Shown here: piece after piece, positions 43,688 through 49,099 of the stretch | How the letters are laid out: each line of letters opens with the position of its first letter | How positions within the stretch are numbered: position 1 is the first letter of the stretch | Source of the DNA: Waterburya sp. | Lineage (GTDB): Bacteria > Cyanobacteriota > Cyanobacteriia > Cyanobacteriales > Xenococcaceae | Direction of reading: 5' to 3' | Assembly (NCBI GenBank): GCA_965217895.1 | Contig: CBDCJV010000002.1 | Coordinates: forward strand, 1,984,001 to 2,048,000 | DNA length: 64,000 nucleotides | The notes under the pieces: model-generated | Databases searched by the model: none | What the model was told of the DNA's origin: nothing | What the model saw: the letters and a program-made list of their open reading frames with translations, nothing else | Program-made: the position numbers and the translations under genes

Positions 43688-44974
43688 ATGAAGACGGCGC
43701 AAAAAGTAACCGTAATAGCATTACTGTGGTTAATGTTCGTTAATCCTGGCAGCATAACTAATCTTGATACTGAGCGCAGATTAAATATGTCTCATGCCTG
43801 GTGGACTGGAACTGAAGAAAGTTTTCCAGGAAACAAGGTAGTGATTAACATTAATGGCAAAAATTATATTCCCTATGACTTGGGGCAGTCAATGCTTATG
43901 CTTCCAGGGGATTGGCTGGGAGATAAACTTGGTCAAAATCTTGACAACGAAAAAGAACGTCAATATTTTAGGGAAGCAGTTGTCAGCTTCTTAATTTTCT
44001 TACCAATAAATTTGCTAGCTGTACTAACTTGCTTTAAATTTTTACAGCTTATTGGTTATTCAGAAAGAATTGCTGGACTATCCAGTATTGTTTGGCTTCT
44101 AGGAACTAGCGTCTTATTCTACTCTAGTTTTCATCAGCAAAATAATCAAATACTGCTGTTTGTCTTAATTGGTTATCAAGCTGCTTTAGCTTATATTATC
44201 AAAAATAAGAAATTTCTGGCGATATTGAGCGGAGCGAGCTTAGGAATTGCTTTTCTAATCAGAATTACTAGTATTTTATACGCAGTCAGCGTTCTAATAT
44301 TTTTGATAGGATGCGTCTTTAGTAAACGTAATAAAAATTTGATGCACCATTACGTCCATCAGCAAGGTAGCGAAGATGCTTCGACTTTTTGGTCTGGTTT
44401 TGGTGTCATTAAGCGCGAACTATTTTTAAAATTGGATGGCTTTGATATCAAACGTTATCTCCGTCCTAGTATTGAAGATATCGATCTAGGTTATCGGCTA
44501 AAACAAACTGGTGCAAAAATTTATTTGGCTAAGGAATTACAGGTAAAGCATCATAAAGCCTGGAAGCTATTTGGTTTAATTAAAACAGATGTATTTGATC
44601 GGGGTATTCCCTGGACAATATTGCTTCTTAGCAACAAATCAAATCGGATTAATGATTTAAACCTGCAAACCAATAGTCGTATTAGCGCAATTGCCACCTA
44701 TAGTTTGCTTCTTTGTCTCTTAGCTAGTATTTTCTATGCTGCTGCAATTGTTCCCAGTCTCATATTAACTATGTTGCTTTTAATTCTGAACTGGGATATA
44801 TACCTGTTTTTTTATCAAAAACGTGGTTTTTGGTTTGCTTTGAGAGTAATTCCCTTGCATTGGCTATATTACTTTTATGCAGCATTATCTTTCGTCATCG
44901 GCACTTTAGCATATTGGAAAACTAATTTGTTGAGCAAAGACACAATTTCTGTCGAATTTCCAGCTTCATCTTAA
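43688..44974 (+). CDS. Chimeric glycosyltransferase: GT-C-like membrane N-half fused to a GT2 C-half
   Basis: YDLGQSMLMLP and multi-TM N-half, then an abrupt switch near 44335 to KNLMHHYVHQ...TFW.G.G...GFD...PSIEDIDLGYRL. Confidence 0.7.
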   Translation: MKTAQKVTVIALLWLMFVNPGSITNLDTERRLNMSHAWWTGTEESFPGNKVVININGKNYIPYDLGQSMLMLPGDWLGDKLGQNLDNEKERQYFREAVVSFLIFLPINLLAVLTCFKFLQLIGYSERIAGLSSIVWLLGTSVLFYSSFHQQNNQILLFVLIGYQAALAYIIKNKKFLAILSGASLGIAFLIRITSILYAVSVLIFLIGCVFSKRNKNLMHHYVHQQGSEDASTFWSGFGVIKRELFLKLDGFDIKRYLRPSIEDIDLGYRLKQTGAKIYLAKELQVKHHKAWKLFGLIKTDVFDRGIPWTILLLSNKSNRINDLNLQTNSRISAIATYSLLLCLLASIFYAAAIVPSLILTMLLLILNWDIYLFFYQKRGFWFALRVIPLHWLYYFYAALSFVIGTLAYWKTNLLSKDTISVEFPASS

Positions 44975-46484: not shown

Positions 46485-47030
46485 TTAATGAACGACAATA
46501 ATATTTCTTTCAGGACGGCTTAAGAAACCTTCTTGTTCTAGCTGATTAATCAACTTAGTAACTGATACTCTAGTTGCACCAATAATTTCAGCCAAATCTT
46601 GGTGAGTTAGGCGCATATCGATTAGCTGCCCGATTTCAACTTCAGTTCCAAACTTCTGCGCTAGCCAAATCAGCATTTTGCATAACCGTTGATATATTTT
46701 TTCCGAATGCAGAATAGAAAGTAATTCTTCAGTTTGCTGGGTGTGTTTAACAATTAATTCCGTCATATTCTCCGCCTGCGCTACGGGAATGTTCATAGCT
46801 TCAACGTAAGTCAAACATTTCACTCTGCAAGGATAAACCAGAAGTAAAGGCTGACCTATTAAGTCATCTTTCCCCCAATATCCGAGGGTAATAGGGTTTT
46901 CTTCATCTGTATAAGCAATAGTTTTAACAATACCTTGTTGCAATAACCAAAAAGAATCTAGTTTTAGAGGAAGCAATTCACCAGCAACAAATGTTCGATG
47001 CTCTATCTTGGAATGGAAATTATCTTGCAT
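46485..47030 (-). CDS. Crp/Fnr family transcriptional regulator
   Basis: TLGYWG..D..G and RLTHQDLAEIIGATRVSVT HTH; start placed at ATG 47030 because the longer ORF runs into the IS. Confidence 0.88.
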   Translation of the reverse strand: MQDNFHSKIEHRTFVAGELLPLKLDSFWLLQQGIVKTIAYTDEENPITLGYWGKDDLIGQPLLLVYPCRVKCLTYVEAMNIPVAQAENMTELIVKHTQQTEELLSILHSEKIYQRLCKMLIWLAQKFGTEVEIGQLIDMRLTHQDLAEIIGATRVSVTKLINQLEQEGFLSRPERNIIVVH

Positions 47031-47055
47031 CAGGATCTTACTTCGAATGGATGTA

Positions 47056-47536
47056 TTGAAAATTAATATTACCAAATAACTGGGTTTGGTAGAGTCGAGG
47101 GAGGTTATTAAGCTTCGCCCCTCTGTGTTAGAGCTGGGCGGGTGATTTTCATTGCACCCAGCTCTCGATATTCTTAGCTTTCGCTTTTGCTCAAAGGAGT
47201 GCTACGAAACTTGCCGTTTTTCTGTACTTTAAAGTACTAGCCTAGCAAGTCAAATCCATCTGTCGTGGCGGTTAGCTTGGTTTTCTGCTCACTGACTTTC
47301 ATTCCTCTTGTCGCTAGAAATTCGCTAATTTTTTCAAGTTCAAAGCGTCCTCCAAACGTGAGTGATTTTTGACCATAGAATACCGCTTCGCATTTAAGGC
47401 ATATAAATTCAAACTCTACGAAAATAGGCGAAATAGATACTTGAAACGAAGTATTAATGCTTCGGCTTGTTCCACTCTCGTCGCGATTCCAGAATCCTAA
47501 GCGCGAAGCATTGCTTTAGCAAGAGGAGTACGTCAA
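47056..47536 (+). mobile_element. Non-autonomous IS200/IS605 (tnpB) remnant
   Basis: Left end TTGAA...; TnpB-like N-terminal KAYKFKLYENRRNRYLKRSINAS at 47396-47464; right end GAATCCT...TTGCT-TT-AGCAA-GAGGAGTACGTCAA. Confidence 0.7.
47089..47393 (-). mobile_element. Internally deleted group II intron (RT fragment plus domains V-VI)
   Basis: 5' ATGCG (GTGCG-like); RT remnant EKISEFLATRGMKVSEQKTKLTATTDGFDLLG*YFKVQKNGKF; DV AGAGCTGGGTGCAATGAAAATCACCCGCCCAGCTCT; 3' end ...GACTCTAC. Confidence 0.8.
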
Positions 47537-47631
47537 ATGAGCCGGTGAGGTTTAACTACAGTCGCAAGAAATTGCGATATTTTCTGAGAAAATTTATGAT
47601 GGTTATTTAATCTAAGACTGGATAAAAAGCC

Positions 47632-47796
47632 ATGCTGAAGGTATTCTTTATTTCTCTAATGGGTTTTCTTAGCCTATATATATTAAGAGGATTGGGCTTT
47701 CTTACCTTTATTTCGGGAGGAGTGATTATAATCTTGTTACTGATGGCGATTATATCTGGCTTGATATGGGGTATTGCCAAGACCAGAAGGTATTAG
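47632..47796 (+). CDS. Small (54 aa) cyanobacterial membrane protein
   Basis: Below the ORF-track cutoff: MLKVFFISLMGFLSLYILRGLGFLTFISGGVIIILLLMAIISGLIWGIAKTRRY. Confidence 0.65.
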   Translation: MLKVFFISLMGFLSLYILRGLGFLTFISGGVIIILLLMAIISGLIWGIAKTRRY

Positions 47797-47845
47797 ATTT
47801 CCTGCATCAATCAAATGTCTTGGTTAGAAGTGAAATAAAAAGTAA

Positions 47846-49099
47846 ATGTGTCAGGCAGAGAGGGTAATTGTTATTGGTGGTGGTGCAGCGGGTTTTTTTG
47901 GTGCGATCGCCTGTGCAGAAGTCAATCCCCAACTCAAAGTAACTTTAATTGAAGCTGGACAAAAACCTTTGGCTAAAGTTCGCATATCTGGTGGTGGCAG
48001 ATGTAATGTAACCCATCACTGTTTCGATCCTGCACGTTTGATTGAACATTACCCTAGAGGCGGAAAAGCTTTACGGGGTGCATTTACCCGTTTTCAACCC
48101 CAGGATACGGTGCAGTGGTATGAGTCACGCGGGGTAAAGTTAAAAACTGAAGCTGACGGCAGAATGTTTCCTGTTACTGATGATTCCCAAACAATTATTA
48201 ATTGCCTAATGAAAGCAGCAGATAAGGCAGGTGTGAAATTGTTAACTGGGACTGGGGTAAAGACAGTTAAGCAATTTTATGACGAAGAAAATAAAAGTTA
48301 TTTTCAGGTTGAATTAAAAAACGGTAAAATTTTCGAGGGCGATCGCCTGTTAATCGCTACAGGTAGTAATCCTTTAGGATATCGCTGGGCAAAAAACTTA
48401 GGACACAAAATTGAGCCAGCAGTTCCATCATTATTTACTTTAAATGTCAAAGATCTTCGTTTACAAAGTTTAGCGGGAGTAAGCGTTGGTAATGCTCAAG
48501 TTAAGCTAGGTACGGGCAAGCATAAAATAGAACAAGCAGGGGCGTTATTAATTACCCATTGGGGCGTAAGTGGCCCTGCTATCCTGAAACTATCTGCTTG
48601 GAGTGCCAGATTTTTATACGATCTTAAATATGATTCTGGTTTACAAATTAATTGGCTACCTGAATATAACCAAGAGACTTTGAAGCAAAAGTTGATAACA
48701 GTAAAAGAAACTAATTCTAAGAGAAAGATAGTTAATTACTGTCCTGTAGAATTGCCCAAACGTCTTTGGCAAAGCTTTGTTAGCCATGTAGAAATTAAGC
48801 CAGACAAAATTTGGTCAGAGATCGCTAAAAAAGAATTAAATAAACTGGTGTTGGAGATAGTGCAAGGACAGTATGAGGTCAAGGGCAAAGGAGTATTCAA
48901 AGAAGAATTTGTTACCTGTGGCGGAGTAAGTCTTAAAGAAGTAAATTTTAAGACCATGGAAAGCAAAAAATGTCCTGGGCTTTATTTTGCAGGAGAAGTA
49001 TTAGATATAGACGGTGTAACAGGCGGGTTTAATTTTCAAAGTGCCTGGACGACTGCTTGGTTAGCAGGTCAAGCGATCGCTGCTGCGACCAATAATTAA
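47846..49099 (+). CDS. HI0933/BaiN-family flavoprotein oxidoreductase
   Basis: GGGAAG, KVRISGGGRCNVT, GRMFP, THWGVSGP and GEVLDIDGVTGGFNFQ motifs. Confidence 0.92.
   Translation: MCQAERVIVIGGGAAGFFGAIACAEVNPQLKVTLIEAGQKPLAKVRISGGGRCNVTHHCFDPARLIEHYPRGGKALRGAFTRFQPQDTVQWYESRGVKLKTEADGRMFPVTDDSQTIINCLMKAADKAGVKLLTGTGVKTVKQFYDEENKSYFQVELKNGKIFEGDRLLIATGSNPLGYRWAKNLGHKIEPAVPSLFTLNVKDLRLQSLAGVSVGNAQVKLGTGKHKIEQAGALLITHWGVSGPAILKLSAWSARFLYDLKYDSGLQINWLPEYNQETLKQKLITVKETNSKRKIVNYCPVELPKRLWQSFVSHVEIKPDKIWSEIAKKELNKLVLEIVQGQYEVKGKGVFKEEFVTCGGVSLKEVNFKTMESKKCPGLYFAGEVLDIDGVTGGFNFQSAWTTAWLAGQAIAAATNN

What the first reader, a model, noticed from the sequence alone, without database searches (positions are those of the whole stretch)
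47056..47536. Composite element: group II intron nested antisense at the tnpB start inside IS200/IS605 ends
Seen on +: TTGAA left boundary, then 47089-47393, then KAYKFKLYENRRNRYLKRSINAS, then a hairpin ending GAGTACGTCAA. Seen on -: 47393-47089 has an ATGCG start, an RT remnant with a stop (GFDLLG*YF), a domain V stem and a domain VI ending in AC. Known: IS605-group elements have TTGAN target motifs, TCAA right ends and a right-end omegaRNA; described IStrons are mostly group I intron fusions. Inference: a group II intron homed into the start of tnpB, and the hybrid shrank to a ~480-bp unit that keeps all four ends. It could still be moved by TnpA in trans and might still make an omegaRNA, with a guide beginning ATGAGCCGGTGAGG. 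The TnpB identification rests on my recognition of a 23-aa stretch.
Basis: partly seen in the sequence, partly recalled or inferred. Interest (0 to 1): 0.8.

Follow-up and report, generated by a model that had tools for sequence, protein, structure and literature searches.

The report
Intron-invaded transposon wreck in cyanobacterium
This is the dead, shrunken remnant of a small TnpB transposon whose left end was invaded by a self-splicing group II intron; the copy itself cannot work, but its intron belongs to a small lineage that repeatedly lands at the same spot in such transposon ends.

Summary
The parts are real, but they do not form a working unit. Window 47069-47536 is the remnant of an IS200/IS605 (tnpB) element carrying an antisense group II intron. 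The target motif is TTAC (47069-72), not TTGAA. The intron did not home into the tnpB start: it sits 15 nt inside the left end (LE), directly before the guide AAAG and hairpin that TnpA needs. Deletions then removed about 87% of the intron (including its 5' end and domains I-III), the LE guide and hairpin, and about 1 kb of tnpB with its start codon. So two of the 'four ends' are gone, and the genome has no IS605 TnpA and no cognate TnpB. What holds up is lineage-level: 10 distinct junctions put this intron clade at the same LE position, and the one intact intron has EBS1 AAAGCC, which matches the LE guide and hairpin foot. Group II introns inside IS605/IS200 elements are published (tnpB ORF; ISEL1). 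This scan has noted right-end and tnpB cases on other DNA. I found no left-end case in print.

The parts
46485..47033 (-). crp/fnr-family regulator gene (host, left flank); start taken at the ATG near 47033, open frame runs from 47075
   Evidence: Pfam HTH_Crp_2 E 9e-15; ORF list; 92% identical in G017
47069..47072 (+). TTAC target motif / left cleavage site of the IS
   Evidence: Shared sequence with copy 2 starts exactly here; 9 uninvaded left ends start with TTAC, collected with a TTA[CT] pattern; IS608 geometry
47073..47087 (+). First 15 nt of the IS605-family left end; guide AAAG and subterminal hairpin missing
   Evidence: 14/15 to the intact G213 left end; 2 of 52,594 TTAC sites reach this
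47088..47193 (-). Group II intron 3' end: last ORF codons, domain V, domain VI, terminal ..ACC
   Evidence: RF00029; terminal C in 29 of 30 junctions listed, the exception being a false hit; host gene restored only with this end in the Nostoc PCC 7120 plasmid copy (compared by eye)
47194..47329 (-). RT6/RT7 fragment with in-frame stop; joined to the 3' end by a 582-bp deletion relative to copy 2
47330..47376 (-). RT0 fragment (GQKSLTF..RFELEK), joined to RT6 through about 15 nt of imperfect microhomology; about 585 nt deleted
   Evidence: 84% to full introns of G008 and G013
47377..47394 (.).
   Evidence: 9 genome hits at up to 1 mismatch against 1 control; same repeat inside a gene of G031
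47396..47467 (+). tnpB codons 2-25; start codon lost (TTT where 13 of 13 relatives have ATG or GTG)
47468..47536 (+). Degenerate tnpB 3' tail plus IS right end: GAAT at 47492, interrupted hairpin, TCAA at 47533-47536
   Evidence: Alignment to 5 intact right ends; the only such end found by pattern in the genome; similar ends in G005, G024, G059
47565..49099 (+). Host right flank: small membrane ORF, then HI0933-family flavoprotein; in relatives this block follows a spy/cpxP-like gene, not crp

Best explanation
An inactive fossil made in steps. (1) A TTAC-targeting IS200/IS605 element with tnpB inserted in the crp leader. Shown: G017 has the left end at this site without an intron; distant relatives have neither. 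(2) An RT-maturase-HNH group II intron (CL/IIB type) retrohomed, antisense, into the left end between nt 15 and the guide AAAG, using EBS1 AAAGCC and EBS2 CGCCC to pair with the complement of the guide and hairpin arm. Shown for the G013 relative; inferred for this copy, whose EBS loops are lost. This puts about 2.2 kb between the cleavage site and the TnpA-binding hairpin, which should cripple excision (inferred from IS608 biochemistry). (3) A second copy of left end plus intron arose in the genome (C2:3418631-3419472, 96% identical), and the two copies exchanged flanks: crp lost its neighbour ribA, which now flanks copy 2. The synteny is shown; recombination between copies is inferred. (4) At least four deletions and a small-repeat insertion left about 465 bp. 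The remnant cannot splice, retrohome, transpose or guide a nuclease.
For: LE identity and TTAC. With the intron removed in silico, the flanks of G013 and G019 score as left ends (E 7e-7 and 1.5e-4); the G017 crp site scores E 0.0023. EBS1 position validated: 12 of 15 parsed introns (of 57 5' ends seen) pair 6/6 with their own exon, against a shuffled mean of 2.0 and maximum of 7 in 2000 shuffles. All 7 LE-inserted introns in a 25-row tree lie in one clade of 9 (99/98); none of the other 16 is in an LE. The remnant maps to three separate pieces of a full intron. ribA lies beside crp in 16 of 20 relative loci, 4 not testable; the spy-like gene lies upstream of the HI0933 block in 7 of 10. No TnpA or cognate TnpB.
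Against: The window's 19-nt TTAC+LE stub is not significant by itself against the LE profile (E 0.47). Both exons are in hand for only 2 LE-inserted introns (G013, G019), and neither is followed by tnpB or a right end, so that this tnpB piece and this LE come from one IS rests on family match (G094 and G213 carry both). Two of the 9 clade members (G008, G032) and a G062 5' end sit in other targets. Three junctions (L154, L172, L178) were found with a pattern that contains the LE letters. G017 and G019 share one site, and G019 sequence is in the same run as G000. The swap is not clean: a truncated gshA-like gene lies between spy and copy 2, and my predicted empty site was not found. Both copies point the same way, so a further inversion must be assumed.
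Confidence: 0.85

Rival explanations
1. One reading: the intron homed into the tnpB start and the ~480-bp unit keeps all four ends, is mobilisable by TnpA in trans and makes an omegaRNA.
For: TnpB start, right end, intron 3' end and an LE stub are all present. ORF-less PATEs mobilised in trans and encoding omegaRNA are described (PMC10055086, passages). A related intron does sit, in sense orientation, in what looks like a tnpB start in G115.
Against: Intron 5' end, domains I-III and the LE guide and hairpin are missing; losing the guide abolishes the IS608 complex (PMC3201880, passages); the shrunken unit is single-copy, and no hit joined intron and tnpB or right-end parts in 61 and 401 genomes searched; no TnpA or cognate TnpB.
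Confidence: 0.03
2. The full IS::intron composite was once transposed as one unit by TnpA, pairing the guide with the TTAC 2.2 kb away. This would explain two copies with identical 15-nt left ends at two different TTAC sites.
For: Shared sequence of the two copies starts exactly at TTAC; LE stubs identical, introns 96% identical. Near-identical IS605 copies carrying the same intron in tnpB are reported for Coleofasciculus (PMC4810608 supplement passages).
Against: Independent homing into two IS copies, or duplication during a rearrangement, gives the same picture. Copy 2 has no right end. No intact composite was found in any locus fetched. In IS608 the cleavage site lies 19 nt from the hairpin.
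Confidence: 0.12
3. Chance pile-up: the intron-in-LE remnant and the tnpB/right-end remnant come from two unrelated IS copies that were brought together at a rearrangement breakpoint.
For: The element sits on a synteny break, with left and right flanks from different ancestral loci; a small repeat lies at the joint; G017's site has no recognisable tnpB or right end (by eye).
Against: Order and strand (LE, tnpB start, right end) fit one element, and LE and tnpB types match one family (G213, G094). Recombination between two copies of that family is part of the best explanation anyway.
Confidence: 0.1

Closest known systems
RT-HNH group II introns inserted in IS605/IS605B transposons of cyanobacteria (Kapitonov, Makarova, Koonin 2016, PMC4810608; main-text and supplement passages read)
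   Same: Mobile RT-maturase-HNH group II intron nested site-specifically in IS605-family elements of cyanobacteria, also in more than one copy per genome.
   Different: There the target is the TnpB ORF; here it is the non-coding left end just before the TnpA guide, antisense to tnpB. The figure itself and further supplement passages were not seen.
Family F4 introns of Thermosynechococcus elongatus in ISEL1, IS200 family (Mohr et al. 2010, PMC2882425; passages)
   Same: An intron subfamily retargeted by EBS change to one conserved site of an IS200-family element; insertion elements serve as safe sites.
   Different: The position within ISEL1 was not stated in the passages read, so a left-end site there is not excluded. 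This copy is a deleted fossil.
IStrons (group I intron fused to IS605/IS607; PMC4227781 and 10.1101/2023.11.20.567912; passages)
   Same: Intron and IS200/IS605 sequence in one element.
   Different: IStrons use group I introns in sense, with splice sites at the IS ends so the whole IS is spliced out. Here a group II intron is antisense and internal, and would remove only itself.
IS608-type IS200/IS605 ends and PATEs (PMC3201880, PMC10055086; passages)
   Same: TTAC left cleavage site, 15 nt, AAAG guide and hairpin in intact relatives; TCAA right cleavage site; ORF-less miniature size.
   Different: PATEs keep both hairpins; this remnant has lost the left guide and hairpin.

Membership tests
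Group II intron (CL/IIB type) | Domain V and VI at the 3' end | tested here: met
   RF00029 above gathering; fold
Group II intron (CL/IIB type) | 5' end GUGYG and domains I-III with EBS1/EBS2 | tested here: not met
   About 780 nt of the 5' part absent; clade members start GTGCGATTCG
Group II intron (CL/IIB type) | RT-maturase(-HNH) ORF | tested here: not met
   Three fragments and a stop; the G013 relative has RVT_1 and GIIM and an HNH-like tail seen by eye. The class label CL2/IIB is inferred from host range and recall; no IEP class tree was built.
IS200/IS605 (TTAC, IS608-like) | TTAC target directly 5' of the left end, no duplication | tested here: met
   no true empty site of the whole element was found
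IS200/IS605 (TTAC, IS608-like) | Left guide (AAAG) and subterminal hairpin 19 nt from TTAC | tested here: not met
   Replaced by the intron end; absent from the whole remnant
IS200/IS605 (TTAC, IS608-like) | Right end: guide, hairpin, TCAA | tested here: inconclusive
   GAAT and TCAA align with 5 intact ends (GAAT as right guide is recalled); hairpin interrupted, fold not above shuffles
IS200/IS605 (TTAC, IS608-like) | tnpB and/or tnpA ORF | tested here: not met
   Only codons 2-25 and a degenerate tail
PATE (non-autonomous IS605 derivative) | Both terminal hairpins kept; multiple copies at target motifs | tested here: not met
   Left hairpin absent; the shrunken form is single-copy
IStron | Group I intron in sense whose splice sites coincide with the IS ends | tested here: not met
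   Group II, antisense, internal at LE +15
TnpB omegaRNA locus | Scaffold over the tnpB 3' end and right end, with a cognate TnpB | tested here: not met
   About 50 nt align well, the upstream part is deleted or degenerate; only TnpB in the genome is 28% identical
TnpB omegaRNA locus | Expressed small RNA | not testable with these tools
   No RNA holder listed

The most novel reading that the evidence does not exclude
A group II intron lineage has evolved an exon-binding site that copies the transposase guide of IS605 left ends (EBS1 AAAGCC), and the invaded element could still be cut at its original TTAC and moved with the intron as cargo. That would make a group II intron/IS605 composite spreading both by retrohoming and by TnpA, which left the two copies in this genome. 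The left-end targeting alone I put at about 0.8; transposition of the composite is the unproven step.
Probability: 0.12. Interest if true: 0.6.

Novelty: new variant of a known kind. Interest (0 to 1): 0.33.

Why it matters
This copy has no function. The lineage is a neat example of one selfish element parasitising another: the intron reads the few bases that the transposase uses as its guide, lands between cleavage site and hairpin, and should immobilise the transposon while using its many leftover ends (12 left-end-like hits in this genome) as harmless landing sites. It also offers a natural test of how far apart TnpA tolerates its cleavage site and guide. It does not provide a group II IStron.

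Tried and rejected
TTGAA as target motif: rejected. G017 has the same TTGAA..TTAC stretch before its LE; GTATTGA is also in the leader of IS-free relatives (seen by eye; the count attempted mis-anchored and is not used).

My first reading, that the whole left flank was host sequence (note): dropped after G094 and G213 showed it to be an LE.

Predicted empty site joining the gshA-like gene to the right flank: not found; orthologues continue differently.

Phylum-wide 14-nt pattern for the 5' junction: near chance; none of the 30 loci read was an intron in an LE hairpin, one was an intron with the same IBS1 in another context.

Genome contigs pattern: 4 hits, 3 real. Metagenome pattern: 31 hits, 3 LE junctions of this clade. 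Viral contigs: 0. Family-wide pattern: 11 matches in 8 of 61 genomes, 7 real. Of 8 named plasmid loci fetched (of 30 records hit), the 4 whose 3' junction was parsed were not in an LE.

First tree held two non-intron rows and partial rows and was redone; one search left out 5 short rows, the window copy among them. One search used wrong coordinates and is ignored. One search's EBS parse returned nothing and was fixed. Promoter and terminator scan: chance level. No RNA holder listed.

Literature: searches gave no paper describing a left-end-targeting group II intron in the listings or passages read; PMC7923331 (passages) has the IS only beside the intron. The name SDR for the small repeat is recalled; searches did not retrieve its description. 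One supplement file of PMC4810608 and the bioRxiv supplements were not seen and could bear on novelty.

Full report
Setting. The window is G000:C2:1984001-2048000 of a 5.3-Mb genome in 2 contigs; named relatives of its intron are cyanobacterial. The feature lies between a crp-family gene on the minus strand and a small ORF plus HI0933-family gene on the plus strand.

What is there. Rfam finds one family in the window, the group II intron domain V/VI model at 47089-47166 minus, 40.9 bits against a gathering score of 40. The minus strand reads GQKSLTFGGRFELEK-ISEFLATRGM..GFDLLG*YF..RSTP-LSKSES*. Against a full intron of G013 (L023; 4561 nt including a 2387-nt nested intron) the remnant maps as three pieces: the 3' end, an RT6/7 piece and an RT0 piece. 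About 290 of about 2175 nt survive, and the first 780 or so, with the GTGCG start and domains I-III, are gone. The intron's last base is 47088: the base after ACTCTA[C/A] is C in 29 of 30 junctions listed, and a Nostoc PCC 7120 plasmid copy restores its host RT gene only with that end (compared by eye). This fits a branch A eight bases from the end, as recalled for IIB introns.

The IS parts. The 24-aa peptide has no Pfam hit alone but is 18/24 identical to the N-terminus of an intact TnpB in G213 (OrfB_IS605, TNB and guided_TnpB over cut-off) and 23/24 identical to G094's. All 13 relatives have ATG or GTG where the window has TTT. The last 50 nt or so align with five intact right ends, though the hairpin is interrupted and folds no better than shuffles. 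Intact relatives begin TTAC, 15 nt, AAAG, hairpin (9 such ends collected by pattern). This is the IS608 geometry: TTAC 19 nt from the hairpin foot, guide AAAG essential, right site TCAA (PMC3201880, passages). The window has TTAC at 47069-72 and 15 nt that match G213's left end at 14/15; of 52,594 TTAC sites in the genome only two do so, both intron-bearing. The intron follows at once, so guide and hairpin are missing. Against a left-end profile the 19-nt stub alone is not significant (E 0.47).

Where the intron inserted. In G013 and G019 both exons are present. With the intron taken out in silico the flanks score as left ends (E 7e-7 and 1.5e-4), the 5' exon being the complement of guide plus hairpin. 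The EBS1 loop position is validated across the class: 12 of 15 parsed introns, out of 57 5' ends seen, pair 6/6 with their own exon; shuffled mean 2.0, maximum 7 (near-copies are included). G013's EBS1 is AAAGCC and a candidate EBS2 is CGCCC. G019's outer intron is a chimera whose own EBS1 is lost. Ten distinct junctions place the intron directly after a left-end stub: G000 twice, G013 twice, G019 twice, G017 once and three metagenome contigs, in several left-end subfamilies with 14-19 nt after TTAC or TTAT; G017's motif is degenerate. On a tree of the last 280 nt of 25 introns (5 short rows left out), the 7 left-end rows fall in one clade of 9 (99/98), with G008 and G032 in other targets and none of the other 16 in a left end. 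Caveats: the three metagenome cases were selected by a pattern holding left-end letters; G017 and G019 share one site; G019 sequence is in the same run as G000. Independent events number perhaps 7-8. Of 40 5' ends read in a wider set, only these two have a left-end hairpin exon of this type, so the habit appears confined to this clade among the genomes searched.

History of the locus. G017, 92% identical over crp, has the same TTAC followed by a decayed left end with no intron (E 0.0023); more distant relatives lack it. So the IS came first and the intron second. A second copy in G000 (C2:3418631-3419472, 96%) shares sequence from exactly the TTAC, holds 582 bp more intron and is fused to the last codons of ribA. 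ribA is crp's neighbour in 16 of 20 relative loci, 4 untested. The gene upstream of the HI0933 block in 7 of 10 relatives lies 1.5 kb left of copy 2 in G000. Exchange of flanks between two copies explains this, with loose ends: a truncated gshA-like gene intervenes, its tail lies near C2:4650700, my predicted empty site failed, and the copies are now in direct orientation. Short-read contigs bridge the main joints.

Could it work? Not as an intron (no 5' end, no domains I-III, broken ORF). Not as a transposon: there is no left hairpin, and the genome's only Y1 hit is a REP-associated transposase fragment below the IS200 cut-off. Not plausibly as a guide RNA: the scaffold region is cut back, the one TnpB is 28% identical and of another end type, and no motif-flanked seed target exists at up to 2 mismatches in 12 nt. 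The shrunken unit is single-copy, and no hit joined intron with tnpB or right-end parts in 61 and 401 genomes. Expression could not be tested.

Known versus new. RT-HNH group II introns in IS605 tnpB genes of cyanobacteria are published, including duplicated copies (PMC4810608, passages and supplement passages). So is an intron family at a conserved site of IS200-family ISEL1 (PMC2882425, passages; position not stated there). Truncated introns among mobile DNA are the bacterial norm (PMC4424553, passages). IStrons are group I (passages). Earlier notes of this scan report right-end and tnpB insertions on other genomes and nothing like this sequence. Six searches showed no left-end-targeting case; the library lacks most subscription papers.

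Verdict. Observation partly confirmed, interpretation partly supported. A dead relic, and a new variant of a known habit: an intron lineage aimed at the guide of IS605 left ends. Interest 0.33.

Noticed in passing
L242/L278 (G115:C327) 217-2570: An intact TTAC left end followed about 130 nt later by a related full-length group II intron inserted in sense at about codon 7 of what looks like a tnpB start (MRVLEF/N..); the rest of the ORF is decayed. This is the 'intron at the tnpB start' arrangement, in another genome.
   Followed up: partly
G000:C2:3417271-3419475 (L021): Second LE::intron copy; it cuts about 10-20 codons off a glutamate-cysteine-ligase-like gene (name recalled) and replaces the last codons of ribA. 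The gene's lost tail appears near C2:4650700.
   Followed up: partly
G000:C2, e.g. 349842, 1098144, 1454254, 2546236, 2842510: 12 left-end-like hits by profile but only one right end of this type by pattern: many solo IS605 left ends, uninvaded.
   Followed up: partly
L022 (G008) 2134-2330: Domain I of the G008 intron carries a ~60-nt insertion resembling the sequence upstream of tnpB in the G034 IS605 element (seen by eye).
   Followed up: no
L022, L023, L110, L113, L114, L118, L233: Many introns of this class are twintrons or chimeras, with a second intron in the RT gene or in domain I.
   Followed up: no
window 47377-47394; L213 (G031): Short dispersed ~24-nt repeat, also inserted inside a coding sequence in G031; similar short inserts interrupt right-end hairpins in the window, G005, G024 and G059.
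   Followed up: partly
G000:C2 35432-37611, 276231, 2702008: Three copies of another group II intron of this class with a shared 5' exon and a matching EBS1.
   Followed up: no
G000:C2:1621821-1622834 and 2354797-2355123: One apparently intact stand-alone TnpB of another family, and a truncated REP-associated tyrosine transposase.
   Followed up: partly
window 43688-44974: The 428-aa ORF looks by eye like a membrane-protein N-terminus fused to a glycosyltransferase C-terminus, perhaps another deletion fusion; not tested.
   Followed up: no
L254 (G102:C52): An intron of another branch whose 5' exon complement begins AAAAGCCCCCG and might be a different IS end; not tested.
   Followed up: no
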